DNA of 64,000 bases from Vicinamibacteria bacterium. Its GTDB lineage: Bacteria > Acidobacteriota > Vicinamibacteria > Fen-336. The notes under the pieces are model-generated. The model saw only the letters and a program-made list of their open reading frames with translations. It was not told the origin of the DNA and did not search any database. Shown piece after piece: positions 9,082 through 27,812 of the stretch (positions are counted from its first letter, which is position 1; every line of letters begins with the position of its first letter). The stretch lies in assembly GCA_035691285.1 (NCBI GenBank), contig DASSJI010000034.1, positions 12,358 through 76,357 of the forward strand, read 5' to 3'. Both the position numbers and the translations under genes were made by a program.

Positions 9082-12000
9082 CCCATGTCCCTGAGACGAA
9101 GGACTCGCTTCACGAACGGGTCGCCGAGCTTCAAGGTGCGCCGCTGCTGGAGCAGGGGCTTGGGCCCGCACACCTCCGTGAAGTCGCACAGGTCGCAGGA
9201 CTGGGGCTCCTGGACGAACAGGCCCGAGGCAATGGCGTCCGCGAGCCCGCGCAGCAGCGTGCGGAAACCCTCGCCCTCGACCGCGGCGGGGTCGAACACG
9301 ACGCGTCGGCCGCCGTCGACGTAGTCGAGGAAGGCCTCCACGACGCGCTCCTCCGGGAACAGCTCGCGGGCCGCGAGGACGTAGAAGGGGATCTGGAGCT
9401 GGCGGCCGCCCTTGAGGAAGCCGCCGTCGTCCCTGAAGGGCGCGCGCCCGGTCTTGTAGTCTCGCAGCACCAGGCCGCCTTCGGGCCTGCGGTCGATCCG
9501 ATCGATGCGCCCCGAGATGCGGATCGCGCGGCCGTCGCCCAGGTCGATCGCGACGGGCTCCTCGCGCCAGGGCTCGCGGTTGCCCTCGGGCGCGGGCAGG
9601 CCGAAGCCCACCTCGAACCAGGCGGGCGTGCGCTTGTCGGCCTCCGCGGCCAGGCGTTCGAGCCAGGCCAGGGCGGTGGCCCGGAAGCGCGCCTTCTCGC
9701 GCTCCCAGAGGCTCGTGAAGCGCGGCGGGCTTCCCTCGACGAGCGCCTGCAGGGCGGCTTCGCACATCTCCAGGAGCCGGTCCTGGGAGGCGGCGTCGTT
9801 CGTGACGGGAAGCTGGCCCTGCTCGCGCCGCTCGCGCAGGAACTCCTCCGCCACCCTGTGGAAGAGGTTCCCGCGCTCGAGCGGCTCGAGGCGCTTGCGT
9901 TCCTCGGGGACCTCGCGCGCCTCGAGGCGCAGCACGTGCTCGAGCAGGTACTGGAAGCCGCAGCGGGCCCAGGTCGCGAGGCGCGTCGCTGAGAGCACCA
10001 GGCCCGGCCGCGAGGGGTCGAGGCGCTCCAGGAGGCGGGCCGCGTCCAGGGCGCCTTCGCCGTCCCGGGGCGAGAAGGCCACGAGGCCGTCGTAGGGCGT
10101 GAGGTGCCTCGACCAGCGGGCCAGGCTGGCGAGGCGGGACTGCCTGAAGAACCGCGAGCCCTGGGCCACGGCGAGGGCGGCCTCCCTTCCGCCCTTGCGG
10201 ACGCGGGCGCGGTCGCGCTCGCCCGCGTCGAGCGCCTCTTCGGCCGGGAGCAGGTCCTCGTCGTCCTCGCTCACGCGTGCGTGGAGCTCCGAGAGACCGA
10301 GGGGCTGCGCGGCGAGCGTCGAGGCCGCCGCCACGAAGAACAGCGACGGCATGCGCTCGCGTCCCGAGCGCGGGTCGGCGCGGGGATAGCTCAGGACGAG
10401 CTTCTCCGTGGCCTGGGACACGGCGCGATGGAAGGCGCGGCGCGCCTCGCGCAAGCGGTCCTGGGTCGTGGCCAGCGCCGCCGCGGCGGGGGGCGCGGCG
10501 TCGAAGAGCCCGAGCTGGCCGGCCTGCGTGGGACGGGCCGGCGCGGGGGGGGCCAGGGCCTCACGCTCTGCGTCGAGCAGGAAGGGGTCGGGGCGCGGCG
10601 CGCCCGGGAAGCCGCCCTCGCCGAGGCCAGGGAAGGCCAGCACGCGGAACGTGAGGCCCGCCATCGCGTCCATGGCCCCGACGTGGACCGCGCCGCCCGA
10701 GACCGGGGGCAGCGGCACGCGCTCCCACTCGAAGCGGGCCAGCAGCACGCTCTCGAGCTCCGCGGGAGTGGCGCGGGCGCCGCCGAGGCCGGCCAGGTCG
10801 TGGAGCACCTCGAGAACCGCCTCGCGATCGCGCTCCTCGCCCACGAAGCGATCGAGAGCCGCCCGCAGGCGCTGCGACCATTCCGACCAGCTCGCCTCGC
10901 CGGACAGGGCACCGAGGGTCTCGGCCAGCGCCTCGACCAGACGCTCGAGGTCCTGCGCGTCCGCGAGGCGCCGCTCGCGGCGCGCGCGCCGAGCCGGGTC
11001 GCGCTCGCCCCGGGCGGCGGCGGCCTCGTCGCGCAGCAGCACTCGCAACCCGGCCCGCCAGCGGTCGAGGCCCGACACCACCCGTGCGTCGCGGGAGAGC
11101 TGGTCCCAATGGCCGGCGCGCAAAGCGGCTCCCGGCCGCAGCAGCCGCTCGAGGGGCAGCGGCGCGAAGCTCAGGAACTCGAGGACCGCCGAGCGCTCGA
11201 GGCCGCGGCAGCGCAGCAGCAGGAGCAGCGAGCGCGCAGCGCGGCCGTAGCGCAGCGGCAGGGAGGGATGCAGCCGGTACGGGACGCCGAGCCGCTCGAG
11301 AAGGTCGGAGAACAGCGGCGCGTACTCCGCCGGCCGGGCCAGCACGATGCCCATCTGCTCGAAGGGCACGCCGCGGCGCGCCTCGCGCAGCAGGCGCCGG
11401 GCGATGGACCGGGCCTCGGCCGCCTCGCCGGGCGCCGTCAGCAGCTCGACCGAGCCGTCCTCCACGGGCTCGCCCACGGCGGGCTCGAAGAGGCTCGTGC
11501 GCAGGCGCCGGAGGCCGGCCGGCGGCTCCTCGGGCGCCACGCTCCCGAGCAGCGTCTCGGACCAGTCCACGGCGGCGATGCCCACGCCCTCGGCCCACGC
11601 GGCGAACGAGCCGTCGCGCACGCCCGGCGGGCGGAGGCGTTCCAGCCGGACGAGCCGGTGGCTGCGGGCCACGGCCTCGAGGAAGCGGCGATCGAGGGCG
11701 TCGGTCTCGACGTCGTCGACCACGAGCAGCGTGGCGCCGCGCAGGAAGGGCGAGTCCGGGGCGGACTCAGCGGCGGCGGCGAGGAGCGTCGCGGGATCGG
11801 CGCGTCCCTCGTGCTCCGCGTGGAATGCGCGGTACAGGAACGCCAGGGCGCGCCGCCGCGCGGCGTCCTCGGGCGTCGGGGCCTCCTGCGCGGCGAGCGC
11901 CTCGAGGGCGTCGGGGGCAAGGCCGGCGAGCCGCAGCTCGTGCAGGGTGCGCGCCAGCGCCGCCGCCACCGGAGCCCGGGGGGCTCCCTCGGGAAGGGTG

Positions 12001-12251
12001 AGGCCGTGGGGAGCGTCGAGCAGGCGCGCCGCAAGCAGCGCGTCGTGGCCGGGGTCCCACGCCTGGAGCCCGCGGCCGAGCAGCTCGGGCTCGGCGATGG
12101 CGCGCGCCAGCTCGCGCGGCTTCATCGCGTAGACGAAGGCGAGCGCCCGCCCGGTCTCCGCCAGGCGCCGCGGCCACTCCAGCGCGGCGGCCCGGGAGGG
12201 CACGACGAGGATCGTGGGGCCCTGGGACGGGCCTACGGCGCTTCCTCCCAC
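9078..12251 (-). CDS. addB: AddB-type helicase-nuclease subunit (degenerate helicase, C-terminal Fe-S PD-(D/E)XK nuclease)
   Basis: C-terminal RDYKTGRAP and CDLCDFTEVCG Fe-S/nuclease motifs typical of AddB; N-terminal degenerate P-loop region PTILVVPSRAAALEW; likely GTG start ~12251 (first 220 aa of track ORF are artefact); translationally coupled to addA. Confidence 0.8.
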   Translation of the reverse strand: MGGSAVGPSQGPTILVVPSRAAALEWPRRLAETGRALAFVYAMKPRELARAIAEPELLGRGLQAWDPGHDALLAARLLDAPHGLTLPEGAPRAPVAAALARTLHELRLAGLAPDALEALAAQEAPTPEDAARRRALAFLYRAFHAEHEGRADPATLLAAAAESAPDSPFLRGATLLVVDDVETDALDRRFLEAVARSHRLVRLERLRPPGVRDGSFAAWAEGVGIAAVDWSETLLGSVAPEEPPAGLRRLRTSLFEPAVGEPVEDGSVELLTAPGEAAEARSIARRLLREARRGVPFEQMGIVLARPAEYAPLFSDLLERLGVPYRLHPSLPLRYGRAARSLLLLLRCRGLERSAVLEFLSFAPLPLERLLRPGAALRAGHWDQLSRDARVVSGLDRWRAGLRVLLRDEAAAARGERDPARRARRERRLADAQDLERLVEALAETLGALSGEASWSEWSQRLRAALDRFVGEERDREAVLEVLHDLAGLGGARATPAELESVLLARFEWERVPLPPVSGGAVHVGAMDAMAGLTFRVLAFPGLGEGGFPGAPRPDPFLLDAEREALAPPAPARPTQAGQLGLFDAAPPAAAALATTQDRLREARRAFHRAVSQATEKLVLSYPRADPRSGRERMPSLFFVAAASTLAAQPLGLSELHARVSEDDEDLLPAEEALDAGERDRARVRKGGREAALAVAQGSRFFRQSRLASLARWSRHLTPYDGLVAFSPRDGEGALDAARLLERLDPSRPGLVLSATRLATWARCGFQYLLEHVLRLEAREVPEERKRLEPLERGNLFHRVAEEFLRERREQGQLPVTNDAASQDRLLEMCEAALQALVEGSPPRFTSLWEREKARFRATALAWLERLAAEADKRTPAWFEVGFGLPAPEGNREPWREEPVAIDLGDGRAIRISGRIDRIDRRPEGGLVLRDYKTGRAPFRDDGGFLKGGRQLQIPFYVLAARELFPEERVVEAFLDYVDGGRRVVFDPAAVEGEGFRTLLRGLADAIASGLFVQEPQSCDLCDFTEVCGPKPLLQQRRTLKLGDPFVKRVLRLRDMG

Positions 12252-13009
12252 TTCTTGCGGATCCGCTCGCGTTCGCCCGAGGCCACGAGCTCGCGCACCG
12301 CGGCCTGCACCTGCGCCGCGAGGCCGGCGTCGCTCCGCCGCAAGCCCACGTGGTAGCCCAGACGGTTGAGGGTCTCGCCCACGGTCTTGAAGGAGCCGTC
12401 CCGGGCCACGCGCCACTTCACGTACGGCGAGTCGTACAGGATCGCGCCGAGCTTGTCCGCCTTGAGGTCGTCGAAGAGCGTCTCCTGCTTGTCGTAGACC
12501 TTGAGGGCGCCCGCGCCCACGGAGCGCAGCGTGCGCTCCACCACCTGGGACTGGAAATGGCCCACCGTGATCTTCTTCAGGTCGCCGAGACCCGTCACCT
12601 TCGCATCGTCGGCCCGCGCCGCGAGCAGGAGACCCCACTCGTAGTAGGCCGTCGAGGCGGCGATCTCGGGCGGCGTCCGCGGGCCGGGCGTCCAGGCGCA
12701 GACGATCGCGTCGATGCGCCCTCGTACCAGGGCCCGCTCCAGGTCGAACCACGCCACCGGCACGATCACGAGCGGGCGCCCGAGCCGCTGGCTCAGGAAC
12801 TGGGCGACGTCGACGTCGATGCCCGTCGCCTTCTTGAGCTGCGCCTCGGTCACCCGCGGGTCGGCGTTCGCGTCCTCGGCCGAGTAGTCGAGCCCCGGCA
12901 CGAAGGACCACGGCGGCGAGCGCGTGTCCATCCCCACCCGGAAGACCGGGTCCGCGGCGCTCGCGGAGACGGTCGCGCCGAGGGCGAGGGCGACGGCCAA
13001 GGAGCGCAT
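12233..13009 (-). CDS. ABC transporter substrate-binding protein (family 3, amino-acid type), secreted
   Basis: ATG at 13009 (MRSLAVALALGATVSASAADP signal peptide); periplasmic binding protein type 3 features; stop overlaps presumed addB start region. Confidence 0.75.
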   Translation of the reverse strand: MRSLAVALALGATVSASAADPVFRVGMDTRSPPWSFVPGLDYSAEDANADPRVTEAQLKKATGIDVDVAQFLSQRLGRPLVIVPVAWFDLERALVRGRIDAIVCAWTPGPRTPPEIAASTAYYEWGLLLAARADDAKVTGLGDLKKITVGHFQSQVVERTLRSVGAGALKVYDKQETLFDDLKADKLGAILYDSPYVKWRVARDGSFKTVGETLNRLGYHVGLRRSDAGLAAQVQAAVRELVASGERERIRKKWEEAP

Positions 13010-13088
13010 GGAACGTCCCGAAGCTATCACGAACGGACGCCGCCTTGACCGCGTCGGCGCGCGTCCCTTAGCCTTCGGACGCCAGCTC

Positions 13089-14579
13089 ATGAACCCGACC
13101 AAGGTGGGCCGCTACGGGATCGTGGGCGTCGTCTCCCGCGGCCCCGACGAGGACGTCCTCGTGGGCGAGCACGGCTCGCGCCGGGCCACGATCCGGGTCT
13201 TCCACGGCCAGGATCGCGCGGGCATCCTGGAGGACGCGCGGCGCGTGGCGGCCCTCGCCCATCCCAACGTCGCGCAGCAGGAGGTCGGCCTGCACGGCGA
13301 CGAGCCGTTCCTCGCCGCCGAGATCGCCGGCGAGACGCTGCCGAAATGGGGCGAGCGCGAGCGCGCTCTCCCAGAGCAGCTCCTGGTCCTCGAGGGGGTC
13401 GCGGCCGGCATCGGCCACGCCCATGACCACGGCGTCGTCCACGGCCGCTTGACGCCCGAGCGCATCGCGGTCGGGGGGGACGGCGTCGCCCGTATCTGGG
13501 GCTTCGGCCTGCGCAGCGCCGCCGGGCAGCCCCTGGCCGCGTCCGCCTACACCGCTCCCGAGATGGCCGGTGGCGAAGAGCCGACAGCCTTGGCCGACGT
13601 CTACGCGGTCGGCGTCGTCTTCTACGAGCTCCTCACCCGCGAGAGGCCCACGGGAGAGGCTCCGGTGCCGCTCCGCGAGCTGCGCAAGGACCTGCCCAAG
13701 GACCTGGCCGACGCCATCATGGCGTGTCGAGAGCGCTCGGCGGACTGGCGCCCCAAGGACCTCGACTACCTCCTCGAGTGCGTGCACCGGGTGCGGGGCA
13801 CGCTGCCCGCCCTGAAGCTGGCGACGCCGAAGGTTGCGCCGGTCGCCGTCGCGCCGCGGCTGCGCGCGGAGGAGCGGCGCTCTCCCGTCCCGCTGCTGCC
13901 CATCGCCGTGGGCGTGGTCGTGTTCCTGGGTGGAGCCGTGGCCCTCTACCGGCTCGCTGGCTCGAAGGCGGCGGCGCCCGAGCCGGCCCCGACCACCCTG
14001 GCCCAGGCGCCGGCTCCCGCCGCGGCGACGCGCCCGGCCTCTCCGGTCGGCGTCGCCGAGCCGCAGCTCGCGACGCCCGCGCCCGCGCCGACGCGCACGC
14101 CCACAGCAGCGTCCACCGCTCCGACACCCTCGCCCGCCGCAGCCGCGCGGCCCTCGGCCACGCCGGCGCCGACACCCGCCCAGGCCGCGACCCCTCCTCC
14201 GGTCGCCGCGGCGACGGCGCTCCCAAGCGTCGCGGCACAGACGCCCACGCCTCCTCCCGTCACGAGCGCGCCGGCGACGCTCGCGCCGGCGCCTGGACCC
14301 GCCCTGCTCACCGCCGTATCGCCGCCCACCCTGCGCCGTGGCCTCCGGACCCTCGTCGACGTCCGCGGCCAGGGTCTTTACCCCGGGCTCGGCGCGGCGC
14401 TGCTCCGGGGCGGGCGGCCCGCCGAGGGCGTGCACGCCCGCCAGCAGCGCTTCGTCAGCGCGGGCCTGGTGCAGGTCTTCGTCGAGGTCGACGCCGACGC
14501 GGCGGCGGGCGCCTACGGGCTCTTGCTGAGCGACGGCCAGAACGTCACGAACGTCGTTCGCTTCGACGTGCTGAAGTAG
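13089..14579 (+). CDS. membrane-anchored protein-kinase-like protein (predicted pseudokinase) with Pro/Ala/Thr-rich linker and C-terminal beta domain
   Basis: ATG at 13089; kinase fold recognisable (APE motif YTAPEM, activation segment WGFG) but catalytic signatures degenerate: no VAIK lysine, HRD -> HGRLTPER, DFG -> GFG; TM helix LLPIAVGVVVFLGGAVALY; ~130 aa PT-rich low-complexity region. Confidence 0.6.
   Translation: MNPTKVGRYGIVGVVSRGPDEDVLVGEHGSRRATIRVFHGQDRAGILEDARRVAALAHPNVAQQEVGLHGDEPFLAAEIAGETLPKWGERERALPEQLLVLEGVAAGIGHAHDHGVVHGRLTPERIAVGGDGVARIWGFGLRSAAGQPLAASAYTAPEMAGGEEPTALADVYAVGVVFYELLTRERPTGEAPVPLRELRKDLPKDLADAIMACRERSADWRPKDLDYLLECVHRVRGTLPALKLATPKVAPVAVAPRLRAEERRSPVPLLPIAVGVVVFLGGAVALYRLAGSKAAAPEPAPTTLAQAPAPAAATRPASPVGVAEPQLATPAPAPTRTPTAASTAPTPSPAAAARPSATPAPTPAQAATPPPVAAATALPSVAAQTPTPPPVTSAPATLAPAPGPALLTAVSPPTLRRGLRTLVDVRGQGLYPGLGAALLRGGRPAEGVHARQQRFVSAGLVQVFVEVDADAAAGAYGLLLSDGQNVTNVVRFDVLK
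13980..14300 (+). repeat. low-complexity Pro/Ala/Thr-rich coding region (linker of pseudokinase)
   Basis: Translation APEPAPTTLAQAPAPAAATRPASP...TPTPPPVTSAPATLAPAPGP; compositionally biased, internally repetitive. Confidence 0.4.
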
Positions 14580-15723
14580 GGACGAGCGCCAGCAGGAGGC
14601 CCGCGGCGCAGGCGGCGAGAGCGGCGCCCGTGCCGAGCGCCGCTCCCGCCCCGCGCCAGTGCCAGAGCGCGCCGGTCAGGAGGCTCGCCGGCAGGAGCGC
14701 CGCTCCGGTGACGGCGTGGTACCAGCCGAAGGCGCGGCCGCGGGCGCCCTCGGGCACGAGGTCGGCGACGAGGGCGCGCTCGGCGCCCTCGGTGGCCGCG
14801 TGGAACACGCCGTAGAGGCCGAAGAGCAGCCAGGCGTGGAGCGGGGCGTGCGCCGCGGCGAAGCCGACGTAGGAGAGCGCGTACACGACCCAGCCGAAGG
14901 CGATCGCGCGCTTCCGCCCGAGGCGGTCCGAAAGCGCCCCCAGCGGCGTGCCGAGGCCCGCCTTGACCACGTGATGGAACATCCAGAGGAGCGGCACCGC
15001 GACGAGCGGTACGCCGAGCTCCTGGGCGCGCAGGATCAGGAACGCGTCCGAGGAGTTCCCGAGCGTGAAGACGCCGAGCGCGGCCAGGTAGCGCGCGAAG
15101 CCGGGCGACAGCCGCGAGCCTGCCCCGCGCGGAGCCGGCGAGCCTCGCGCTCCGTCGCTCACGCCGAGGACGAGGACCAGGACGCTCAGGAGGCCAGGCA
15201 CGAGCGCCAGGGCGAAGACGGCGCGCAGCTCGAAGCCGGCGGCCAGGGCGGCTGCTGCGATGAGCGGGCCGAGCACGGCGCCGGCGTTGTCCATCGCGCG
15301 GTGGAAGCCGAAGGCGCGACCGCGCTCCTGGGGTGCCACGGCCCCGGCGACCAGCGCGTCGCGCGGCGCGCCCCGCACTCCCTTTCCGACGCGATCGAGC
15401 AGACGGATCGCGAGCACGTGGGCCGGAGCGCCGGCCAGGGCCATGCATGGACGGACGACCGCCGAGAGCGAGTAGCCGGCGACGACGAGAGGCTTCGCTC
15501 GGCCAAGCCGGTCGGCGAGGGCGCCCGAGGCGATCTTGAGCAGGCTCGCGGCGGCCTCGGCCACGCCTTCCACGAGGCCGAGGAAGGCGGGGCCGGCGTG
15601 GAGCGTCCCGGTCAGGAACGCGGGCAGCAGCGGGTAGATCATCTCGCTCGAGGCGTCGGTGAGCAGGCTGACGCCGCCGAGCCGTCGCACCACGGGAGGC
15701 AGCGGCGGGGCCATGCCGGCCAT
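14545..15723 (-). CDS. MFS transporter
   Basis: 392 aa, 12 predicted hydrophobic segments, MFS-like loops (GRAKPLV, DRLGRKRAI); 35-nt convergent overlap with upstream gene. Confidence 0.75.
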   Translation of the reverse strand: MAGMAPPLPPVVRRLGGVSLLTDASSEMIYPLLPAFLTGTLHAGPAFLGLVEGVAEAAASLLKIASGALADRLGRAKPLVVAGYSLSAVVRPCMALAGAPAHVLAIRLLDRVGKGVRGAPRDALVAGAVAPQERGRAFGFHRAMDNAGAVLGPLIAAAALAAGFELRAVFALALVPGLLSVLVLVLGVSDGARGSPAPRGAGSRLSPGFARYLAALGVFTLGNSSDAFLILRAQELGVPLVAVPLLWMFHHVVKAGLGTPLGALSDRLGRKRAIAFGWVVYALSYVGFAAAHAPLHAWLLFGLYGVFHAATEGAERALVADLVPEGARGRAFGWYHAVTGAALLPASLLTGALWHWRGAGAALGTGAALAACAAGLLLALVPTSARRSERRS

Positions 15724-15767
15724 CTTAGGCGCGCGGGTCCGAAGTAAGATCCCTGCGAGGAGGCGTG

Positions 15768-17693
15768 ATGGCAGAGCGGCGTTACGATCGGCTGACCCAT
15801 CCCCTGGTGCGCCGGGACGGCGCCCTCGTGCCGGCGAGCTGGGAGGAGGCGCTCGCGCGGGCGGCGGACGGCTTCCGTCCCTACCAGGGCGCGCGCGCGA
15901 CGTCGGGGTTCGGAGTCTTCAGCTGCTCGAAGGCGACGAACGAGATGAACTTCCTGGCGCAGAAGCTCGCGCGCCAAGTGATGGGCAGCCACAACATCGA
16001 CTCGTGTAACCGCACCTGACACGCCCCCAGCGTCGTCGGTCTGGCGACGGTGTTCGGGGCAGGCGGCGGAACGAGCTCGTACGCTGAGGTCGAGAAGGCC
16101 GACCTCATCGTGCTGTGGGGGTCGAACGCCCGGGAGACGCACCCGATCTTCTTCCATCACGTCCTCAAGGGCGTGCGGAACGGGGCGCGGCTCTACGTGA
16201 TCGACCCGCGCCGGACGAGCTCCGCCCAGTGGGCCGACGGCTGGCTGGGTCTCGACGTGGGCGCCGACATCGCGCTCGCCCACGCCGTGGGGCGCGAGAT
16301 CCTCGCCGCCGGGCTCCACAACCGGGCCTTCGTGGAGCGGGCCACGTCGGGCTTCGAGGCCTACCGCGCGTGCGTCGAGCCTTACACCCTCGCGGAAGGA
16401 GAGCGGCTGACCGGCGTGCCCGCGACGCTGATCCGCGAGCTCGCCCACGCGTATGCCCGCGCAGACCGCGCCCAGCTCTGCTGGACGCTGGGAATCACGG
16501 AGCACCACAACGCCGTGGACAACGTCCTCGCCCTCATCAACCTCGCGCTCCTCACCGGGCACGTGGGCCGCTACGGCTCCGGCCTCAACCCGCTGCGGGG
16601 CCAGAACAACGTCCAGGGCGGCGGCGACATGGGGGCGATCCCGAACAAGTACCCGGGCTTCCAGGACATCGAGGATCCCGGGGCGCGGGCGAAGTTCGAG
16701 AAGGCCTGGGGCGTCGCGCTGCCTCCGAAACGCGGCTGGCACTTGACGCAGATGTTCGAGGCGATGGAGCGCGGCGAGCTCCGCTCGCTGTACGTGATCG
16801 GCGAGAACCCGTGCCAGTCCGAGGCCGACATGCACCGCGCGACGAAGCTCCTGGCGGGTCTGGAGCATCTCGTGGTGCAGGACCTCTTCATGACCGCCAC
16901 CGCCCGGATGGCCCACGTCGTCCTCCCCGCGGCCGCGGCGTGGTGCGAGAGCGAGGGCACGGTCACGAGCAGCGAGAGGCGCGTCCAGCGCGTGCGCAAG
17001 GCCATGGATCCGCCCGGAGAGGCGCGCCAGGACATCGACATCCTGTGCGGCATGGCGCGGGCGCTCGGGCGCGACTGGGGCCGGGTGAGCGCGGAGGCGG
17101 CCTGGGACGAGCTGCGCACCCTCTCGCCGATGCACGCAGGCATGTCGTACGCCCGCCTCGAGGCGCAGGGCGGGATCCAGTGGCCGTGTCCGGACGAGGG
17201 CCATCCCGGCTCGCCGTTCCTCCACGGCCGGCTCTGGGAGGAGCCCGTGCAGGGCCCGCGGGCGCCGTTCTCGGCCGTCGCGTTCGAGCCGCCCGTGGAC
17301 GAGCTGAGCGACGAGTTCCCGATCCGCCTCACGACCGGTCGCCGGCTCGACTCGTTCAACACCGGGGTCCAGACCGCGGGCTACACGTCGCCGCTCCGGC
17401 GCGGCGAGAGCCTCGACCTGTCCCCCGAGGACGCGAGGCGATACTCGGTGAGGGAGGGCGAGACCGTGGTGGCGCGCTCCCGCCGCGGCGAGGTCCGCGT
17501 CCCGGTCCGCATCGACTCGAGCCTGCGCCCGGGCCTGGCGTTCATGACGCTGCACTTCCCCGACGACGTGGCGACGAACCTCCTGACCATCGACGCGACC
17601 GACCCGAAGTCCGGCACCGCCGAGTTCAAGGCCACGGCGATCCGCATCGAGAAACCGGCGGCTCCCGAGCCGGCTCTGGCAGGCCGCGGCTGA
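15768..17693 (+). CDS. fdhA: formate dehydrogenase catalytic (molybdopterin, bis-MGD) domain, selenocysteine-containing (UGA at 16017-16019 read as Sec); lacks N-terminal Fe-S domains
   Basis: GGAGG SD then ATG 15768; track ORFs 15765..16019 and 16050..17693 are the same frame separated only by TGA; context GSHNIDSCNRT-U-HAPSVVGL matches the Sec/Cys active-site region of FdhF/FdsA (NID.CAR.(U/C)HGPSVAGL); downstream molybdopterin oxidoreductase motifs. Confidence 0.8.
16017..16019 (+). other. in-frame UGA decoded as selenocysteine (predicted)
   Basis: Position corresponds exactly to Sec140 of E. coli FdhF; reading frame continues without interruption; SECIS-like hairpin follows. Confidence 0.6.
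16020..16060 (+). promoter_or_regulatory. candidate bacterial SECIS element (mRNA hairpin immediately 3' of UGA)
   Basis: cacGCCCCcagCGTCGtcGGUCUGgCGACGgtgttcGGGGC: nested stems GCCCC/GGGGC and CGTCG/CGACG with apical loop containing GGUCUG, resembling the fdhF SECIS loop (GGUCUG region) that binds SelB. Confidence 0.45.
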
Positions 17694-19549
17694 TGGACCT
17701 CCGCTTCCGCGAGGCGCGGCCGACCGCCGCCGAGCGCCGCGCCGTCGACGCCGTCCTCGGGCCGCCCAGCTCGGGCTGGGAGGGCGGGCGACGCCGGGCA
17801 GAGAGCGACGGCCGCGCCGCGAGCGCGGGCCACGATGCACGCGCCCGCCGCCACCTGCTGTTGCCCGCGCTCCACGCCGCCCAGGGCCGCGTCGGGTGGA
17901 TCAGCGAGGGCGCCCTCAACTACATCTGCCAGCGCCTGACGCTGCCGCCGGCCGAGGCGTACGGCGTGGCGTCGTTCTACGGGATGCTGAGCCTGGAGCG
18001 GCGCGCGCCGGCCGTGGCCCACGTCTGCGACGACCTCGTCTGCCGCCTGAACGGCGCGGAGGCCCTGTGCGGTCGGATGGAGCACGCGCTGGGGCCCGAG
18101 GGCGGGCGCGGGCGGGCCGGCGCGACGTGGGTGCGCAGCCCTTGCCTCGGGCTGTGCGAGCAGGCCCCGGCCGCGCTCGTCTCCCGGGCGGGGGCGCCGC
18201 CCGTCGAGACGGCCGTGGGCGGCGCGACCGCCGAGGGCCTCGTCGCGGCGCTCAGGAGCGAGGTCCAGCCCGCGCCGGCGAAGGCCCGCCTGCCGCAGCA
18301 CGGCGAGCCGGGCCTCCGGCTGCTGCGCCGCGTCGGACGCGTGGACCCCGAGAGCCTGGACGACTACCGGGCGCGGGACGGCTACCGGGCGCTGCGCGTC
18401 GCGCTCGATCTCGGCCCCGAGGGCGTGATCCGCGAGGTGACCGACTCCAGGCTCTTCGGGCGCGGCGGCGCCGCCTTTCCGACAGGACGCAAGTGGGACG
18501 CCGTCGCCAAGGCCCCGGTGCGCACCCACTACCTCGTGTGCAACGCCGACGAGTCCGAGCCGGGCACCTTCAAGGACCGCGTGCTGCTGGAGGAGGACCC
18601 GTTCGCGATCGTCGAGGCGATGACGATCGCGGCCTACGCGACGGGCTGCGAGAAGGGCTTCCTGTACGTGCGCGGCGAGTACCCTCTCGCCGCCCAGCGG
18701 CTCTCCCGCGCCGTCGCCGCCGCCCGGTCGCGCGGCTACCTCGGCGACGACGTGATGGGCCACGGCTTCCGCTTCGACATCGAGGTGCGCAGGGGAGCGG
18801 GCGCCTACATCTGCGGCGAGGAGACCGCGCTCTTCAACTCGATCGAGGGCTACCGCGGCGAGCCCCGCAACAAGCCGCCGTTCCCGACCGTGGCCGGCCT
18901 CTTCGGCAAGCCCACCGTGGTCAACAACGTCGAGACGCTGGCCAACGTCCTCGAAGTCATGCTGGCAGGGGGCCCGGCCTACGCGGGCAACGGAACCGCG
19001 CGCTCGACGGGCACCAAGCTCTTCTGCGTGACGGGGCATGTCGGACGGCCCGGCCTCTACGAGGTGCCCTTCGGCGTCTCCATGGCCGACCTGCTGGCGC
19101 GGGCCGGAGGCCTGCGCGAGGGCAGGAGCCTCAAGGCTGTGCTGCTGGGGGGCGCCGCGGGGACCTTCCTCACGCCCGACGAGACCCGCGTCCCGCTGAC
19201 GTTCGAGGACACCTGGGCGATCGGGGCGAGCCTCGGCTCGGGCGTGGTGCTGGCCCTGGACGAGAGCGCCGACCTGATGGACCTGTCGCTGCGCATCGCG
19301 GCGTTCTTCCGCCACGAGTCGTGCGGACAGTGCGTCCCGTGCCGCGTCGGCACCGTGCGGCAGGAGGAGGCTCTGCGCCGCATCGCCAGGGGCCGGCTCC
19401 TGGGCACCCCGAAGGACGAGGCCCGGCTGCTCGCCGACCTCGGCCAGGCCATGCGCGATGCCTCGATCTGCGGCCTGGGGCACACCGCGTCGAGCGCCGT
19501 GGCCTCGGCGGTCGCCAAGCTCGGCCTCCTCGACGGAGGGCGCCCGTGA
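17693..19549 (+). CDS. NAD-linked formate dehydrogenase beta subunit, fused NuoE-like (2Fe-2S) + NuoF-like (FMN/NAD, 4Fe-4S) protein
   Basis: ATG 17693 overlaps fdhA stop (TGATG); N-term NuoE motifs (LLPALHAAQ...YGVASFYGM...CLGLCEQAP), then NuoF motifs GRGGAAFPTGRKW, NADESEPGTFKDR, YICGEETALFNSIEG, ESCGQCVPCR. Confidence 0.85.
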   Translation: MDLRFREARPTAAERRAVDAVLGPPSSGWEGGRRRAESDGRAASAGHDARARRHLLLPALHAAQGRVGWISEGALNYICQRLTLPPAEAYGVASFYGMLSLERRAPAVAHVCDDLVCRLNGAEALCGRMEHALGPEGGRGRAGATWVRSPCLGLCEQAPAALVSRAGAPPVETAVGGATAEGLVAALRSEVQPAPAKARLPQHGEPGLRLLRRVGRVDPESLDDYRARDGYRALRVALDLGPEGVIREVTDSRLFGRGGAAFPTGRKWDAVAKAPVRTHYLVCNADESEPGTFKDRVLLEEDPFAIVEAMTIAAYATGCEKGFLYVRGEYPLAAQRLSRAVAAARSRGYLGDDVMGHGFRFDIEVRRGAGAYICGEETALFNSIEGYRGEPRNKPPFPTVAGLFGKPTVVNNVETLANVLEVMLAGGPAYAGNGTARSTGTKLFCVTGHVGRPGLYEVPFGVSMADLLARAGGLREGRSLKAVLLGGAAGTFLTPDETRVPLTFEDTWAIGASLGSGVVLALDESADLMDLSLRIAAFFRHESCGQCVPCRVGTVRQEEALRRIARGRLLGTPKDEARLLADLGQAMRDASICGLGHTASSAVASAVAKLGLLDGGRP

Positions 19550-20409
19550 GCGAGGGGCACGCGCGCCGCCCCGTCGAGATCACGATCGACGGCCGTCCGG
19601 TGACCGTCGCCGAGGGCACGACGCTGCTCGAGGCCTGCCGCGCCCAGGGCATCGACACGCCCACGCTCTGCTTCCTGGAGAACCTGACGCCGGTGAACGT
19701 GTGCCGCGTGTGCGTCGTGGAGGTGGAGGGATCCCGCACCCTCGTGCCCGCGTGCTCGCGCGTCGCCGAGCCGGGCATGCGGGTGAGGACCGACTCCGAG
19801 CGCGTGCGCCACTCCCGCCGCCTGGTGCTGGAGCTCCTGGCCTCGTCGGTGGACCTCTCCACGGCGCCCGAGGCCCGGGCGTACCTGGCGCGCTACGAGG
19901 CCAGGCCCGAGCGCTTCGGCTCCGAGGCCGCCACGGTGCGCCAGCCGGCGAAGGTCGACAACGAGCTCTACGTCCGCGACTACTCGAAGTGCATCCTCTG
20001 CTACAAGTGCGTCGAAGCCTGCGGCGAGGACGCGCAGAACACCTTCGCGATCGCCGTGGCCGGGCGCGGCTTCGGCGCGGGCATCTCCACCGAGTTCGGG
20101 ACGCCGCTGCCCGACTCCGCGTGCGTCTACTGCGGCAACTGCATCGGCGTGTGCCCGACCGGCGCGCTCATGTTCAAGAGCGAGCACGACCTGCGCCGGG
20201 CGGGGCGCTGGGACGAGTCGCGCCAGACCCGGACCACGACGATCTGCGCCTATTGCGGCGTCGGCTGCAACCTCACGCTCCACGTCCAGGACAACCGGAT
20301 CGTGAAGGTCACCTCGCCCCTCGACCACGACGTCACGAACGGCCACCTGTGCATCAAGGGCCGCTTCGGCTGGCAGTTCGTCCAGAGCCGCGACGACGAC
20401 GACGTCTAG
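19546..20409 (+). CDS. formate dehydrogenase alpha-subunit N-terminal Fe-S fragment (NuoG-like 2Fe-2S + 4Fe-4S domains plus first Cys cluster of the Mo domain)
   Basis: GTG 19546 overlaps stop of previous gene (GTGA); 2Fe-2S ferredoxin-like CxxC..C, CILCYKCVEAC and CVYCGNCIGVCP ferredoxin motifs, and CAYCGVGCNL...LCIKGRFG which is the start of the bis-MGD domain; protein ends where fdhA (15768) begins in alignment to FdhF. Confidence 0.8.
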   Translation: MSEGHARRPVEITIDGRPVTVAEGTTLLEACRAQGIDTPTLCFLENLTPVNVCRVCVVEVEGSRTLVPACSRVAEPGMRVRTDSERVRHSRRLVLELLASSVDLSTAPEARAYLARYEARPERFGSEAATVRQPAKVDNELYVRDYSKCILCYKCVEACGEDAQNTFAIAVAGRGFGAGISTEFGTPLPDSACVYCGNCIGVCPTGALMFKSEHDLRRAGRWDESRQTRTTTICAYCGVGCNLTLHVQDNRIVKVTSPLDHDVTNGHLCIKGRFGWQFVQSRDDDDV

Positions 20410-20410
20410 G

Positions 20411-20776
20411 CTAGACCGGCTGCGCCTGCTCCACAGGCGTCACCGCGGCCTGGTCCTCCTCGCCGGTGCGGATGCGGTAGACCTTCTCGACGGGCAGCAC
20501 GAAGATCTTGCCGTCGCCGACATCCCCGGTGCGGGCCGCGGCCAGGATCGCCTCGACGGTCGGCGCGACGAAGTGGTCCGAGACGCCGATCTCGAGGCGC
20601 ACCTTCTCGGACAGCTCCATCTTCACGCTGGTGCCGCGGTAGGTCTCGACGCGCTCGGTCTCGCCGCCGTGGCCCTGGACGCGGTTGATGGTCAGCCCGC
20701 GGACCTCGGCGCGAAACAGCGCCTCCAGGACCTCGCCCAGCTTCTCCGGGCGGACGACCGCCACCACGAGCTTCAT
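20411..20776 (-). CDS. glnK: P-II family nitrogen regulatory protein
   Basis: 121 aa MKLVVAVVRPEKLGEVLEALFRAEVRGLTINRVQGHGG...; P-II fold pattern; 4-nt overlap with upstream amt gene. Confidence 0.8.
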   Translation of the reverse strand: MKLVVAVVRPEKLGEVLEALFRAEVRGLTINRVQGHGGETERVETYRGTSVKMELSEKVRLEIGVSDHFVAPTVEAILAAARTGDVGDGKIFVLPVEKVYRIRTGEEDQAAVTPVEQAQPV

Positions 20777-22059
20777 GCGCGGCCTCCCTCCATGGCCGGG
20801 CTCGCGACCGGCGCCGGCCCTGACGCCTCGGCCTCGGGCAGGATCAGGATCGCGCCCTCCTCGCGCGCGTAGGCCTCCTCACCGTGCTGGCTCACGTCGA
20901 GGCCGAGGCCCTCCTCGCGCGGCGAGGCGCGCAGCGCCGTCCCGAGCGCGATGAGCCGGAGCAGCACGAACGTCATGCCGGCGCTCCACGCGGCGGCGAC
21001 TGCCACGGCCAGGAGCTGTACGGCGAGCTGGCGGGCGCCGCCGTACAGGAGGCCGTCGGCGGGACTGGCCCACGCCTTCGACGCGAACACGCCGGTGAGC
21101 AGGGCGCCGAGCGTGCCCCCGAGGCCGTGAGCCGCCACCACGTCCAGCGAGTCGTCGAGGCGGGTGCGGGCGCGGAGCAGCAGGCCGAAATAGCTGGGCA
21201 GCGCCGCCAGGGCGCCCAGGGCGAGGGCGAGGAGCGGGCTCACGTAGCCGGCCGCCGGCGTCACCGCCACGAGACCCACCACGATGGCCGTGGCGGCGCC
21301 CACCGCGGTCACGCGGCCGCTTCGCGAGAAGTCGAGGAGCGTCCACGCCACGAGCGTCGCGGCGGGAGCGAGCAGGGTGTTGGCGAAGGCGAGGGCGGCC
21401 TGGCCGTTCGCGGCGAGGGCGCTGCCGGCGTTGAAACCGAACCAGCCGAACCACAGCAGCCCGGCGCCGAGAACCACGAACGGGACGTTGTGGGGGAGCA
21501 CCGCCTGCCGGGCGTAGTCCTTGCGGGGACCCACGACCAGGGCCGACACCAGCGCCGCGGCGGCGGCGTTCACGTGCACCACCGTCCCGCCGGCGAAGTC
21601 GAGGGCGCCGAGCCGGGCCAGGAAGCCGTCGCCCCACACCCAGTGGGCGAGCGGCGCGTAGACGAGCAGGCTCCAGCCCGTGACGAACGCGAGGTACGCG
21701 CCGAAGCGCATGCGCTCGACGATCGCGCCCGAGACGAGCGCGGCCGTGACGATCGCGAACGTCGCCTGGAAGGCGAAGAAGGCCAGAGCCGGAACGCTGC
21801 CCCGCGCCTCCATGCCCACGCCGCGGAGCAGCGCGTGGCCGAGGCCGCCGCTCAGGACGGAGCCCGGGGCGAACGCGAGCGAATAGCCCAGGAGCGCCCA
21901 GGCGAGGCCCACGCAGCCGGCCGCCGACACGCTCATCATCAGCGTGTTCAGGGCGTTCTTGGAGCGCACGAGACCGCCGTAGAAGAAGCCCAGGGCCGGC
22001 GTCATCAACAGCACCAGCGCGGCCGAGGTCAGGACGAACGCGGTGTCGCACCCACTCAT
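20773..22059 (-). CDS. amtB: ammonium transporter (Amt family)
   Basis: 428 aa, 11-TM Amt signature (MSGCDTAFVLTSAALVLLMTPALGFFYGGLVRSKN...); amt-glnK operon arrangement. Confidence 0.9.
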   Translation of the reverse strand: MSGCDTAFVLTSAALVLLMTPALGFFYGGLVRSKNALNTLMMSVSAAGCVGLAWALLGYSLAFAPGSVLSGGLGHALLRGVGMEARGSVPALAFFAFQATFAIVTAALVSGAIVERMRFGAYLAFVTGWSLLVYAPLAHWVWGDGFLARLGALDFAGGTVVHVNAAAAALVSALVVGPRKDYARQAVLPHNVPFVVLGAGLLWFGWFGFNAGSALAANGQAALAFANTLLAPAATLVAWTLLDFSRSGRVTAVGAATAIVVGLVAVTPAAGYVSPLLALALGALAALPSYFGLLLRARTRLDDSLDVVAAHGLGGTLGALLTGVFASKAWASPADGLLYGGARQLAVQLLAVAVAAAWSAGMTFVLLRLIALGTALRASPREEGLGLDVSQHGEEAYAREEGAILILPEAEASGPAPVASPAMEGGRA

Positions 22060-22231
22060 GGCACCTCCTGGCCTCCCGTGACAGCAATTCGCGTGCGCAC
22101 GCTTCCTCGCGACGACCCGTGTGCCCCAATCTCCTGAGCCGTCTCAGGTTGGCGGCGCGGTGGCGGCGCGATCGGCCGCCTCCGGGTCCGACAGGAATGT
22201 CGGAGCGCGGGGCGGGAGCGACGGGGCTGTT

Positions 22232-23767
<1,536 letters not shown>

Positions 23768-23785
23768 GGCTCGGACGCCTGCTAG

Positions 23786-23814
23786 ATCCTACAAAATTGT
23801 CGGATGTTGATCAA
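23786..23814 (-). promoter_or_regulatory. candidate sigma70-type promoter for the NifA-like regulator (TTGATC-N17-TAGGAT) in an AT-rich island
   Basis: Minus strand reads TTGATCaacatccgacaattttgTAGGATctagcaggcgtccgagccATG; conspicuous local AT-richness in a ~73% GC genome; very short leader. Confidence 0.3.
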
Positions 23815-23944
23815 CGGGGCACGTCGGTGTCGCTGACGGCCGACCATGGAGCGGACCAGGGCGTTGCCGTCCGGCAGCGGACCCGGCGTGGGCGTCTTCC
23901 TGGCCGCCCCGCGAGGAGCGCGAGCGCCACGAGCGCGACGCGCA

Positions 23945-25528: not shown

Positions 25529-25537
25529 CCCGGCATC

Positions 25538-26689
<1,152 letters not shown>

Positions 26690-26769
26690 GGGATCAGCGT
26701 TCCGTTTCCAGAGGGAGTCCTTGAGGATAAGATAGTCGAGCCGCGGGTTTCAAGTCCCGAGGCGCAACG

Positions 26770-27459: not shown

Positions 27460-27812
27460 GGCTGCTCCTGGGCATCGTCGGAAACGCCGTCGCCCTGCTC
27501 GCCACCACCATCGTGCCGGGCATCCACTTCAGCGGGAGCTGGCTGACGCTCCTGCTCGCGGGCGTCGTGTTCGGCCTGTTCAACCTGATCGTGCGCCCGA
27601 TCGCGCTCTTCCTTTCCCTTCCCGCGCTGGTCCTGACCCTCGGCCTCTTCTACTTCGTGCTCAACGGGATCCTCTTGTGGCTGGCCGGCAAGGTCGTGCC
27701 CGGCTACGACGTCTCGGGCATCCTCGCGGGCATGCTGGGAGCGATCGTGCTTTCCATCGCGAACTGGGCGTTCCACGCGGTCTTCGGGCCCGCAAGGCGG
27801 AGCGACGAGTAG
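27456..27812 (+). CDS. phage-holin-family / DUF360 small membrane protein
   Basis: 118 aa, 4 TM segments, pattern typical of PF04020 (holin superfamily IV-like); start overlaps previous stop (ATGA). Confidence 0.55.
   Translation: MRLLLGIVGNAVALLATTIVPGIHFSGSWLTLLLAGVVFGLFNLIVRPIALFLSLPALVLTLGLFYFVLNGILLWLAGKVVPGYDVSGILAGMLGAIVLSIANWAFHAVFGPARRSDE

What the first reader, a model, noticed from the sequence alone, without database searches (positions are those of the whole stretch)
16017..16060. In-frame UGA with SECIS-like hairpin in the FDH catalytic gene
TGA at 16017 sits at the position of Sec140 of FdhF (…SCNRT-U-HAPSVVGL…), and the frame continues for 558 more codons. Immediately downstream is a nested hairpin whose apical loop carries GGUCUG, as in the E. 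coli fdhF SECIS that recruits SelB. This implies the organism has selA/selB/selC/selD, and that automated annotation would truncate or split this gene.
Basis: partly seen in the sequence, partly recalled or inferred. Interest (0 to 1): 0.6.

Follow-up and report, generated by a model that had tools for sequence, protein, structure and literature searches.

The report
Selenocysteine codon in formate dehydrogenase gene
The in-frame TGA at 16017 is very probably a genuine selenocysteine codon with its RNA hairpin signal inside a formate dehydrogenase gene, which is the classic and most widespread case of this recoding and so correct but ordinary.

Summary
TGA at 16017-16019 is codon 84 of a 641-codon gene (15768..17693, +) for the molybdopterin catalytic part of a formate dehydrogenase. 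It aligns without gaps to Sec140 of E. coli FdhF.

All 82 orthologous genes examined, including the window's, have TGA at this codon; the 81 relatives span at least eight phyla. Among 248 conserved fourfold-degenerate codons in the gene, the only third positions that are nearly invariant are in codons 89 and 91-93, which lie on the hairpin. Cys-type (TGC) orthologues encode the same amino acids there but with different codons and no hairpin.

It is a 6-bp stem with a GGUCU loop at 16032..16048, with G23 and U24 at the same distance from UGA as in E. coli fdhF. The lower stem is not supported.

The 64-kb window holds no sel genes and no tRNA-Sec, so their presence in this genome is inferred. 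In 12 related loci, selD, selA/selB and/or tRNA-Sec lie just upstream of the orthologue. Public gene calls do split or truncate this gene.

Side finding: the alpha subunit is split, with gene order catalytic part, NuoEF fusion, Fe-S part, and this order is widely conserved.

The parts
15768..17693 (+). Gene for the catalytic (Mo/W-bis-PGD) part of the formate dehydrogenase alpha subunit. It has 641 codons with one internal TGA and lacks the N-terminal Fe4S4 domain.
   Evidence: Pfam PF00384 and PF01568. TIGR01591 Fdh-alpha scores 643.5 bits and matches profile positions 50-672 only. Best PDB relatives are 7bkb_D, 7qv7_S, 1aa6_A and 6tg9_A. GC3 is 0.86-0.98 on both sides of the TGA.
15757..15763 (+). 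Shine-Dalgarno-like GAGGAGG, ending 4 nt before ATG 15768.
   Evidence: Read directly from the sequence.
16017..16019 (+). In-frame TGA (codon 84), read as the selenocysteine codon for the Mo/W ligand.
   Evidence: It aligns to residue 140 of FdhF 1aa6_A and to Cys386 of 6tg9_A. TGA is present in the window and in all 81 relatives L001-L081. Cys-type orthologues have TGC at this codon.
16032..16048 (+). Conserved SECIS core GUCGUCGGUCUGGCGAC. The helix pairs 16032-16037 with 16043-16048. The loop GGUCU is at 16038-16042, with G23 at 16039 and U24 at 16040.
   Evidence: RNAalifold consensus. 99.5% of cells are paired, with one compensatory change, against 47-70% for partners slid by three columns. 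Third codon positions are frozen only here. The 17-mer is unique in the window.
16023..16060 (+). The part outside the core is possible in this mRNA but is not conserved.
   Evidence: -25.3 kcal/mol, z-score -0.58. Pairs 18-33, 15-36 and 20-31 are broken in 24-49% of relatives. In the lower stem the only variable pair, 9-42, is paired in 48% of sequences against 40% in shuffles.
17693..19549 (+). NuoE-NuoF fusion of 618 aa: the NAD(H)/FMN diaphorase module. Its start overlaps the stop of the catalytic gene (TGATG).
   Evidence: Pfam 2Fe-2S_thioredx, Complex1_51K, SLBB and NADH_4Fe-4S. NCBIfam nuoF_fam and nuoE_fam.
19546..20409 (+). Fe-S protein of 287 aa with 2Fe-2S, two 4Fe-4S and the Molybdop_Fe4S4 domain. 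This is the part that is normally the N-terminus of the alpha subunit.
   Evidence: Pfam Fer2_4, Fer4_7 and PF04879. Residues 232-283 match TIGR01591 positions 1-52, which complements the catalytic gene's match to positions 50-672.

Best explanation
UGA 16017 is decoded as selenocysteine, the Mo/W ligand of a formate dehydrogenase.

**Mechanism (inferred from the E. coli paradigm)**
- When the ribosome reaches the UGA, the first roughly 12-15 nt downstream lie inside the mRNA channel.
- The 17-nt hairpin at nt 16-32 (window 16032..16048) stays folded at the channel entrance.
- The hairpin presents G23 and U24 of its GGUCU loop to the C-terminal domain of SelB.
- SelB-GTP carrying Sec-tRNASec(UCA) is thereby tethered and delivers Sec to the A site, in competition with RF2.
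- Translation then continues for 557 more codons.

**The enzyme (inferred from domains)**
- The product is the catalytic half of a split alpha subunit.
- It presumably assembles with the NuoEF-like diaphorase and the Fe-S protein encoded downstream into an NAD(H)-linked formate dehydrogenase.

**Shown here**
- The codon, its homology position and the intact active-site motifs.
- Conservation of TGA in all orthologues examined.
- Selection on the RNA sequence and pairing of the hairpin.
- Physical linkage of orthologues to sel genes in other genomes.

**Inferred, not shown**
- SelB binding and actual Sec insertion.
- The presence of sel genes in this genome.
For: **Homology**
- Position 84 equals Sec140 of FdhF.
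- The U-H-x-P motif and the catalytic Arg are present.

**Conservation of the codon**
- 80 of 80 genome loci from Acidobacteriota, Actinomycetota, Chloroflexota, Dormibacterota, Gemmatimonadota, Methylomirabilota/Rokubacteria, Eremiobacterota, Planctomycetota and others have TGA here.
- So does the closest relative, L081.
- tblastn alignments run through the TGA in one frame.

**RNA-level selection**
- Of 248 conserved fourfold codons (mean third-position entropy 1.31 bits), only codons 89, 91, 92 and 93 fall below 0.3 bits.
- GGT is 8% of Gly codons elsewhere in these genes but 79 of 81 at codon 91. CTG is 43% of Leu codons elsewhere but 81 of 81 at codon 92.

**Pairing**
- Helix 16-21/27-32 is paired in 99.5% of cells.
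- L021 carries a compensatory change, C18-G30 to G18-C30.
- Pair 20-28 occurs as U.G, C-G or U-A, never C.A.

**Control**
- TGC orthologues (Streptomyces, Saccharopolyspora, one metagenome contig) encode the same S-V-[AV]-G-L with other codons, and the hairpin is lost.

**bSECIS model (PMC13188914, Fig. 2)**
- Loop 5 nt, stem 6 bp, GG at the start of the loop, 18-nt spacing, -8.3 kcal/mol or lower.

**Linkage to the Sec machinery**
- tRNA-Sec is in L008, L012 and L057.
- SelA, the SelB GTPase and SelD are identified by Pfam in L057/L008.
- sel genes lie within 6 kb upstream of the orthologue in 12 loci.

**Ordinary stop function of TGA**
- TGA terminates 9 of 18 genes in the window, including this one.
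Against: - The 64 kb holds no tRNA-Sec, selA, selB or selD.
- The hairpin's free energy is not better than that of shuffled sequence (z = -0.58).
- Rfam SECIS_3 matches over its full length but at only 16.4 bits against a gathering score of 63, and there is no hit at gathering thresholds.
- The bulged U17 that matters in E. coli is absent.
- Much of the hairpin sequence is also constrained by the conserved peptide SVVGLA.
- There is no experimental evidence.
Confidence: 0.9

Rival explanations
1. The TGA is a nonsense mutation or a sequencing error (TGC to TGA), and the gene is a pseudogene or is misread.
For: Cys-type orthologues with TGC exist. One relative, L085, has a single-base variant (CGA) at this codon. 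That shows errors or mutations do occur at the site.
Against: TGA is present in 82 of 82 independent assemblies, counting the window. Both flanks keep a full coding signature and homology. A codon-usage-defying hairpin is conserved only in the TGA genes.
Confidence: 0.02
2. The TGA is a real stop. The locus makes an 83-aa peptide and a separate 547-aa protein that starts at GTG 16050, as automated gene calls suggest.
For: ORF lists and public gene calls give exactly these two pieces.
Against: The 547-aa piece would lack the metal ligand and the preceding conserved residues. The two pieces stay in the same frame with no indel in all relatives, and the stop is always TGA, never TAA or TAG. The pieces are contiguous in Cys-type orthologues. 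There is no obvious Shine-Dalgarno sequence before 16050.
Confidence: 0.02
3. The UGA and hairpin are used by a SelB-type factor, but the residue inserted is not Sec. One example would be Cys delivered by a tRNASec-like tRNACys(UCA) (selC*). Another would be suppression by an allo-tRNA of the kind reported in Acidobacteria.
For: Such tRNAs are described in PMC5389517: selC* tRNACys in anaerobic Firmicutes, Thermodesulfobacteria, Nitrospirae and Proteobacteria, and allo-tRNAs in Acidobacteria. The window seems related to Vicinamibacteria. The tRNA of this genome is unknown.
Against: Related loci carry canonical tRNA-Sec(UCA) together with SelA and SelD. These are needed only for Sec. The paper does not report selC* in these phyla.
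Confidence: 0.04

Closest known systems
E. coli fdhF (FDH-H) Sec140 codon and its SECIS
   Same: - The UGA is at the homologous residue.
- UGACAC follows the codon, and GGUCUG occupies nt 22-27 in both.
- G23 and U24 lie in the apical loop.
- The 5' strand of the helix occupies nt 16-21.
- The core is about 17 nt and starts about 12 nt after the UGA.
   Different: - The loop is GGUCU (5 nt) closed by C21-G27. In E. coli it is GGUC closed by A21-U26.
- There is no bulged U17; here U17 pairs with A31 or G31.
- The host protein lacks the Fe4S4 domain and belongs to an NAD-linked, NuoEF-associated enzyme rather than to formate hydrogenlyase.
Rfam RF01989 SECIS_3 (the SECIS model that detected the elements in mycobacterial fdhA; bioRxiv 10.64898/2026.03.03.709296)
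   Same: The match covers the full model (positions 1-59) at 16014-16075. The apical pairs are the same (C18-G30, G19-C29, U20.G28, C21-G27), and the loop is centred on GUC.
   Different: The score is 16.4 bits against a gathering score of 63. The model forces a U17 bulge and mismatches here. By Rfam's own threshold this element is not a member.
Tungsten/molybdenum NAD-dependent FDHs with NuoEF-type partners: M. extorquens FDH1 (7e5z/7vw6), R. capsulatus and C. necator FdsGBA (6tg9)
   Same: - The cofactor-domain set is the same: NuoE, NuoF, 2Fe-2S, 4Fe-4S clusters, Molybdop_Fe4S4 and the Mo/W-bisPGD domains.
- NuoE and NuoF are fused, as I recall for Fdh1B of M. extorquens (from my own knowledge, not tested here).
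   Different: - Those enzymes have Cys at the ligand position (Cys386 in 6tg9) and a single alpha chain of about 950-990 aa.
- Here the ligand is Sec, and the alpha chain is split after the Fe4S4 domain.
- The catalytic half is encoded first: order CAT, EF, FES.
Cys-type orthologues in Streptomyces, Saccharopolyspora, Nonomuraea and related genera, annotated 'molybdopterin-dependent oxidoreductase / formate dehydrogenase major subunit'
   Same: 65-69% identity over the full length. They share the split architecture and the operon order CAT, EF, FES, with FdhD adjacent in the Streptomyces and metagenome loci.
   Different: They have TGC instead of TGA, and there is no hairpin; the codons over the site differ.

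Membership tests
Bacterial SECIS (consensus bSECIS model, as given in PMC13188914 Fig. 2) | Apical loop of 3-9 nt on an upper stem of 4-16 bp | tested here: met
   5-nt loop (GGUCU) on a 6-bp stem at 16-21/27-32.
Bacterial SECIS (consensus bSECIS model, as given in PMC13188914 Fig. 2) | At least one G in the first two loop positions, usually followed by G or U | tested here: met
   The loop begins G22 G23 U24. G22 and G23 are invariant in 81 of 81 sequences and U24 is present in 79 of 81.
Bacterial SECIS (consensus bSECIS model, as given in PMC13188914 Fig. 2) | [quoted passage not shown] | tested here: met
   18 nt (positions 4-21) lie between the UGA and the loop.
Bacterial SECIS (consensus bSECIS model, as given in PMC13188914 Fig. 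2) | Minimum free energy of -7.5 kcal/mol or lower | tested here: met
   -8.3 kcal/mol for the apical helix in context, -17.2 with the lower stem, -24.5 for the MFE fold. Energy alone does not beat shuffled sequence.
Bacterial SECIS | Binds SelB and directs Sec insertion at the upstream UGA | not testable with these tools
   Needs a gel shift with the cognate SelB, reporter read-through assays or 75Se labelling.
E. coli fdhF-type SECIS | G23 and U24 exposed in the apical loop at that distance from the UGA (from established knowledge of the E. coli element) | tested here: met
   GGUCUG lies at nt 22-27 in both. The E. coli sequence was verified against 5419 genomes.
E. coli fdhF-type SECIS | Bulged U17 in the upper stem (from established knowledge of the E. 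coli element) | tested here: not met
   U17 pairs with A31 (68 sequences) or G31 (12 sequences). Only L014 could form a U17 bulge.
Rfam RF01989 SECIS_3 | Score at or above the gathering threshold (63 bits) | tested here: not met
   16.4 bits, E = 0.32 in a 181-nt search. No hit at gathering thresholds in the whole window.
Selenoprotein FdhA (formate dehydrogenase alpha) | Sec at the metal-ligand position within the U-H-x-P motif | tested here: met
   The motif is U-H-A-P. It aligns to residue 140 of 1aa6_A and to Cys386 of 6tg9_A. The motif is listed in Table 1 of PMC13188914.
Selenoprotein FdhA (formate dehydrogenase alpha) | Whole-protein score above the TIGR01591 cut-off (666.25 bits) | tested here: not met
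   643.5 bits. Only profile positions 50-672 are matched. Positions 1-52 are matched by the separate Fe-S protein at 19546..20409. The shortfall is explained by the gene split, not by divergence.
Sec-decoding trait of the organism | selA, selB, selC (tRNA-Sec) and selD present in the genome | not testable with these tools
   None is in the 64-kb window. The rest of the genome is not available. In 12 related loci sel genes and/or tRNA-Sec flank the orthologue.

The most novel reading that the evidence does not exclude
The locus may belong to a biochemically uncharacterised class of NAD(H)-linked, selenocysteine-containing formate dehydrogenase.
- The alpha subunit is split exactly after its Fe4S4 domain.
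- The genes are permuted: catalytic half first, then a NuoEF fusion, then the Fe-S half.
- The operon occurs at 70-76% protein identity in at least eight mostly soil-dwelling phyla, with an almost invariant 17-nt SECIS.
- This pattern would point to repeated horizontal transfer, possibly together with the sel genes that flank it in Chloroflexota.
- It would also mean a large, systematically mis-annotated pool of selenoproteins in soil metagenomes.
Probability: 0.35. Interest if true: 0.45.

Novelty: new member of a known kind. Interest (0 to 1): 0.3.

Why it matters
The finding itself matters mainly for annotation. The gene should be called as one 641-codon selenoprotein gene, and the organism should be scored as Sec-decoding.

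In public databases the Sec-type orthologues are stored as N-terminally truncated proteins of 496-561 aa, or as an 83-aa fragment plus a second gene. Those records lose the catalytic residue.

The comparative data also give a clean natural experiment on a SECIS. Synonymous sites are frozen only over a 17-nt hairpin in TGA genes and are free in TGC genes. This defines the minimal conserved element for this widespread FDH family.

The split, permuted alpha subunit is a separate point that may deserve biochemical attention.

Tried and rejected
**Checks that gave no support or no result**
- Folding energy as evidence: z = -0.58 against shuffles, so it is uninformative in this GC-rich DNA.
- Rfam at gathering thresholds: no hit. 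In the permissive search SECIS_3 was sub-threshold, and the mir-5881 and ftsZ-DE hits look spurious.
- An N-terminal Fe4S4 domain upstream of the gene in any + frame: none. The frame is closed 13 codons upstream, and a divergent MFS gene follows.
- tRNA-Sec and selA/selB/selD in the window: not found by ARAGORN, by a Pfam scan of the large ORFs, or by tblastn with SelA/SelB/SelD taken from L057 and L008.
- FdhD in the window: absent.
- Source contig or genome by exact protein look-up, using the NuoEF and Amt proteins: not on record.
- Literature on the split FDH architecture: two searches found nothing specific. These were limited searches and do not prove absence.

**Structures rejected**
- The long MFE apical stem (13-22/29-38): pairs 18-33, 15-36 and 20-31 fail in 24-49% of relatives.
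- The lower stem 7-11/40-44 as an established part: its only variable pair shows marginal enrichment.

**Interpretation rejected**
- General reassignment of TGA: it terminates 9 of 18 genes in the window.
Full report
**1. What is in the sequence**

The window is 71.6% GC. An ATG at 15768, preceded by GAGGAGG at 15757-15763, opens a frame that runs to a TGA at 17691-17693 with a single internal stop, the TGA at 16017-16019. There are 83 sense codons before that TGA, and 557 sense codons plus the terminator after it.

Third-position GC is 0.86-0.98 on both sides of the TGA, in the same frame. Across the whole 64 kb, on both strands, this is the only in-frame TGA with coding-like composition for 70 codons on either side.

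**2. What the gene is**

The conceptual product has the Molybdopterin and Molydop_binding domains. It scores 643.5 bits on TIGR01591 (formate dehydrogenase alpha), but only over profile positions 50-672.

Its best solved relatives are formate dehydrogenases: 7bkb_D, 7qv7_S, FdhF 1aa6_A and R. capsulatus FdsA 6tg9_A. A 104-residue fragment around the TGA aligns without gaps to 1aa6_A residues 112-205. This places the TGA at residue 140, the selenocysteine of E. coli FDH-H, and at Cys386 of 6tg9_A.

The motif is DSCNRT-U-HAPSVVGL, which fits the U-H-x-P signature listed for FdhA in PMC13188914. The PLRGQNNVQG segment containing the catalytic Arg is also present.

The position is codon 84 here rather than 140 because the N-terminal Fe4S4 domain is missing from this gene. 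No + frame upstream encodes it, and a divergent MFS gene lies there.

**3. Is TGA conserved?**

A scan of one genome per species returned more than 594 relatives. The best 80 have 70-76% protein identity. They come from:
- Acidobacteriota (Vicinamibacteria, Terriglobia, Bryobacterales)
- Actinomycetota (Gaiellales, Thermoleophilia, Solirubrobacterales)
- Chloroflexota
- Dormibacterota
- Gemmatimonadota
- Methylomirabilota/Rokubacteria
- Eremiobacterota
- Planctomycetota
- genomes labelled Spirochaetia

All 80 have TGA at this codon inside DSCNRT-x-HAPS. tblastn alignments run through it in one frame.

The closest relative found is L081, with 86% nucleotide identity. It shares upstream synteny with the window (MFS, solute-binding protein, large PD-(D/E)XK protein) and also has TGA.

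More distant orthologues, at 65-69% identity, have TGC (Cys) at the same place. These come from Streptomyces, Saccharopolyspora, Nonomuraea and others.

TGA works as an ordinary terminator in 9 of 18 Pfam-supported genes of the window, including this gene's own end. A general codon reassignment is therefore excluded.

**4. Is the hairpin real?**

Shuffled sequences fold about as well (z = -0.58). Stability alone is therefore no evidence in this GC-rich DNA. The comparative data are decisive.

*Synonymous sites.* I built a codon alignment of the 81 genes. Among 248 conserved fourfold-degenerate codons, with a mean third-position entropy of 1.31 bits, the only ones below 0.3 bits are codons 89, 91, 92 and 93. 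Codon 90 is also invariant wherever it encodes Val. These are nt 16-30 after the U of UGA.

The neighbouring third positions 9, 12, 33, 36, 42, 45 and 48 use all four bases freely.

Codon usage at the hairpin defies the usage in the rest of the same genes:

| Codon | Share elsewhere | Share at hairpin codon |
|---|---|---|
| GGT (Gly) | 8% | 79 of 81 at codon 91 |
| CTG (Leu) | 43% | 81 of 81 at codon 92 |

*Consensus structure.* RNAalifold on the 81 sequences predicts one helix, 16-21 with 27-32, capped by G22 G23 U24 C25 U26. On that helix:
- 99.5% of cells are paired.
- L021 has a compensatory change, C18-G30 to G18-C30. Both changes are synonymous.
- Pair 20-28 occurs as U.G, C-G or U-A, never as C.A.
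- Pair 17-31 occurs as U-A or U.G.
- Sliding the 3' partner by three columns drops pairing to 47-70%.

*The long stem is not conserved.* The window's own MFE apical stem (13-22/29-38) is not kept in relatives. Pairs 18-33, 15-36 and 20-31 are unpaired in 24-49% of them. The outer helix 7-11/40-44 is fixed by the Ala, Pro and Gly codons. Its only free pair, 9-42, is paired in 48% of sequences against 40% in shuffles, so it is not demonstrated.

*Natural control.* The TGC orthologues encode the same S-V-[AV]-G-L but as GTG GCG GGG CTG, GTG GCT GGG CTG or GTG GTC GGC CTC. The hairpin is lost in them.

The conserved element is therefore window 16032..16048, GUCGUCGGUCUGGCGAC. It occurs once in the window.

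**5. Comparison with known SECIS elements**

I verified the E. coli fdhF sequence UGACACGGCCCAUCGGUUGCAGGUCUGCACC... against 5419 E. coli genomes. Both elements have UGACAC after the codon and GGUCUG at nt 22-27. G23 and U24, the SelB contacts in E. coli according to established knowledge, sit in the loop at the same distance from the UGA.

Two differences stand out:
- The loop here is GGUCU closed by C21-G27. In E. coli it is GGUC closed by A21-U26.
- There is no bulged U17.

All four constraints of the published bSECIS model (PMC13188914, Fig. 2) are met:

| Constraint | Requirement | Observed here |
|---|---|---|
| Apical loop | 3-9 nt | 5 nt |
| Upper stem | 4-16 bp | 6 bp |
| First two loop positions | at least one G | GG |
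| Spacing from UGA | 16-37 nt | 18 nt |
| Free energy | -7.5 kcal/mol or lower | -8.3 for the apical helix in context |

Rfam SECIS_3, the model that picks up mycobacterial fdhA SECIS elements (bioRxiv 10.64898/2026.03.03.709296), aligns over its full length at 16014-16075 with the same apical pairs. It scores only 16.4 bits against a gathering score of 63. By Rfam's threshold the element is not a member of that family.

**6. The Sec machinery**

The window has no tRNA gene at all. A Pfam scan of its large ORFs found no SelA, SelB or SelD. tblastn with SelA/SelB/SelD taken from relatives gave no hit better than E = 0.6. The source genome could not be retrieved by exact protein look-up.

It is supported indirectly:
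- tRNA-Sec(UCA) lies 2.5-5 kb upstream of the orthologue in L008, L012 and L057.
- Pfam identifies SelA, a SelB-type GTPase and SelD there.
- tblastn finds selD and/or selA/selB within 6 kb upstream in 11 Chloroflexota-type loci.

Linkage of fdhA to sel operons is a known pattern (PMC1794560). FdhA is the most widespread bacterial selenoprotein (PMC1794560, PMC13188914).

**7. Annotation**

On the contig of the closest relative, the public gene calls are an 83-residue fragment ending at the TGA and a separate 517-residue protein.

In the protein database the orthologues at 75-89% identity are 496-561 aa long and cover only 77-86% of the query. One example starts at MFGAGGG, which corresponds to GTG 16050 in the window. 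The full-length entries of 633-663 aa that I inspected are Cys-type, apart from P0002 with Arg.

**8. Mechanism**

*Shown:*
- a UGA at the ligand position
- purifying selection on the sequence and pairing of a 17-nt hairpin starting 12 nt after it, in TGA genes only
- co-location of orthologues with sel genes

*Inferred from the E. coli paradigm:*
- With the UGA in the A site, the first roughly 12-15 nt downstream are inside the ribosome.
- That would melt the lower stem and the first pairs of the long MFE stem, leaving hairpin 16-32 at the channel entrance.
- SelB-GTP-Sec-tRNASec would bind the hairpin through G23/U24 and deliver Sec in competition with RF2.

**9. Rivals**

- A sequencing error or nonsense mutation is excluded by 82 independent TGA-bearing sequences and by the TGA-specific hairpin.
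- A true stop yielding two polypeptides does not fit the invariant frame, the invariant choice of TGA, or the loss of the metal ligand.
- Insertion of Cys or another residue by a tRNASec-like suppressor (PMC5389517) cannot be excluded without the genome. Relatives, however, carry canonical tRNA-Sec together with SelA and SelD.

**10. Side finding**

The alpha subunit is split. The 287-aa product of 19546..20409 carries 2Fe-2S, two 4Fe-4S and the Molybdop_Fe4S4 domain. Its residues 232-283 match TIGR01591 positions 1-52, which complements the catalytic gene's match to positions 50-672. A NuoE-NuoF fusion (17693..19549) lies between them, and the start and stop codons overlap.

The order CAT, EF, FES is kept in every Sec-type locus long enough to show it, about 75 of the 80; in the rest the held sequence ends within or before EF or FES. 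It is also kept in the Cys-type actinomycete operons. Two limited literature searches did not turn up a description of this architecture.

**11. Verdict**

- The conserved SECIS is the short 6-bp/GGUCU hairpin.
- The lower stem is not established.
- The presence of sel genes in this genome remains an inference.

This is a new member of the best-known selenoprotein family and of little surprise to a specialist. Its value is correct annotation and a clean comparative definition of the element.

Noticed in passing
window 15768..20409: The FDH alpha subunit is split and its genes are permuted. The catalytic part (TIGR01591 positions 50-672) comes first, then a NuoE-NuoF fusion, then a 287-aa Fe-S protein whose C-terminus is the Molybdop_Fe4S4 domain (TIGR01591 positions 1-52). 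Starts and stops overlap (TGATG at 17691-17695, GTGA at 19546-19549). The order is conserved in every Sec-type locus long enough to show it (about 75 of 80, from at least eight phyla) and in the Cys-type Streptomyces and Saccharopolyspora operons.
   Followed up: partly
L085:413-460 (protein P0002, ENA farmland metagenome contig of 2.2 kb): One orthologue has CGA (Arg) at the Sec position but keeps a perfect SECIS hairpin (GTCGTCGGTCTGACGAC). This is either a sequencing error or a recent inactivating T-to-C change. As a result it is one of the few 'full-length' database entries of the Sec-type clade.
   Followed up: no
L057:904-5999, L008:442-4558, and also L012, L013, L028, L036, L043, L059, L071, L075, L077: In Chloroflexota-type relatives a sel cluster (selD, tRNA-Sec, selA, selB) sits directly upstream of the orthologous FDH gene. 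In nine of these twelve loci, 1-4 kb of DNA lies between the catalytic gene and the NuoEF gene; the ORFs tested there (in L008 and L057) have no Pfam match.
   Followed up: partly
L057:904-3672 (-) and L057:4695-5999 (+): SelA and the SelB GTPase fall in one 922-aa ORF joined by a low-complexity, junk-like linker, and the SelD ORF has a junk-like C-terminus. These are probably frameshift errors in a long-read MAG rather than real fusions.
   Followed up: no
window 1..64000; L001-L080: FdhD, the sulfurtransferase needed for FDH maturation, is adjacent to the operon in 37 of 80 Sec-type loci and in two of the three Cys-type loci examined (L082, L084). tblastn finds none in the 64-kb window.
   Followed up: yes
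window 5200..5793 (-): An ORF of 197 aa matches Pfam PF24675 (NpmA, 16S rRNA adenine-1408 N1-methyltransferase; E = 2.5e-44, 151.6 bits). That family is associated with aminoglycoside resistance.
   Followed up: no
window 16081..16111 (+): A second, near-perfect hairpin (ACGCUGAGGUCG AGAAGG CCGACCUCAUCGU) lies about 65 nt downstream of the UGA. It surfaced as a spurious sub-threshold mir-5881 match. Third-position entropies at codons 105 and 107-110 (0.55-0.95 bits) are well above those of the SECIS codons (<0.3 bits).
   Followed up: partly
protein database hits P0001-P0120: Sec-type orthologues are stored almost only as N-terminally truncated proteins of 496-561 aa named 'formate dehydrogenase major subunit' or 'YjgC'. 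This indicates systematic mis-annotation of this family in metagenome gene catalogues.
   Followed up: partly
window 9078..15723 compared with L081 and L001: Upstream synteny (large PD-(D/E)XK protein, solute-binding protein, MFS transporter) is shared with JGI metagenome contig Ga0075428_100007834 at 76-80% amino-acid identity. It is partly shared with a Vicinamibacteria MAG at 55%. This suggests the window comes from an acidobacterial (Vicinamibacteria-like) lineage.
   Followed up: partly
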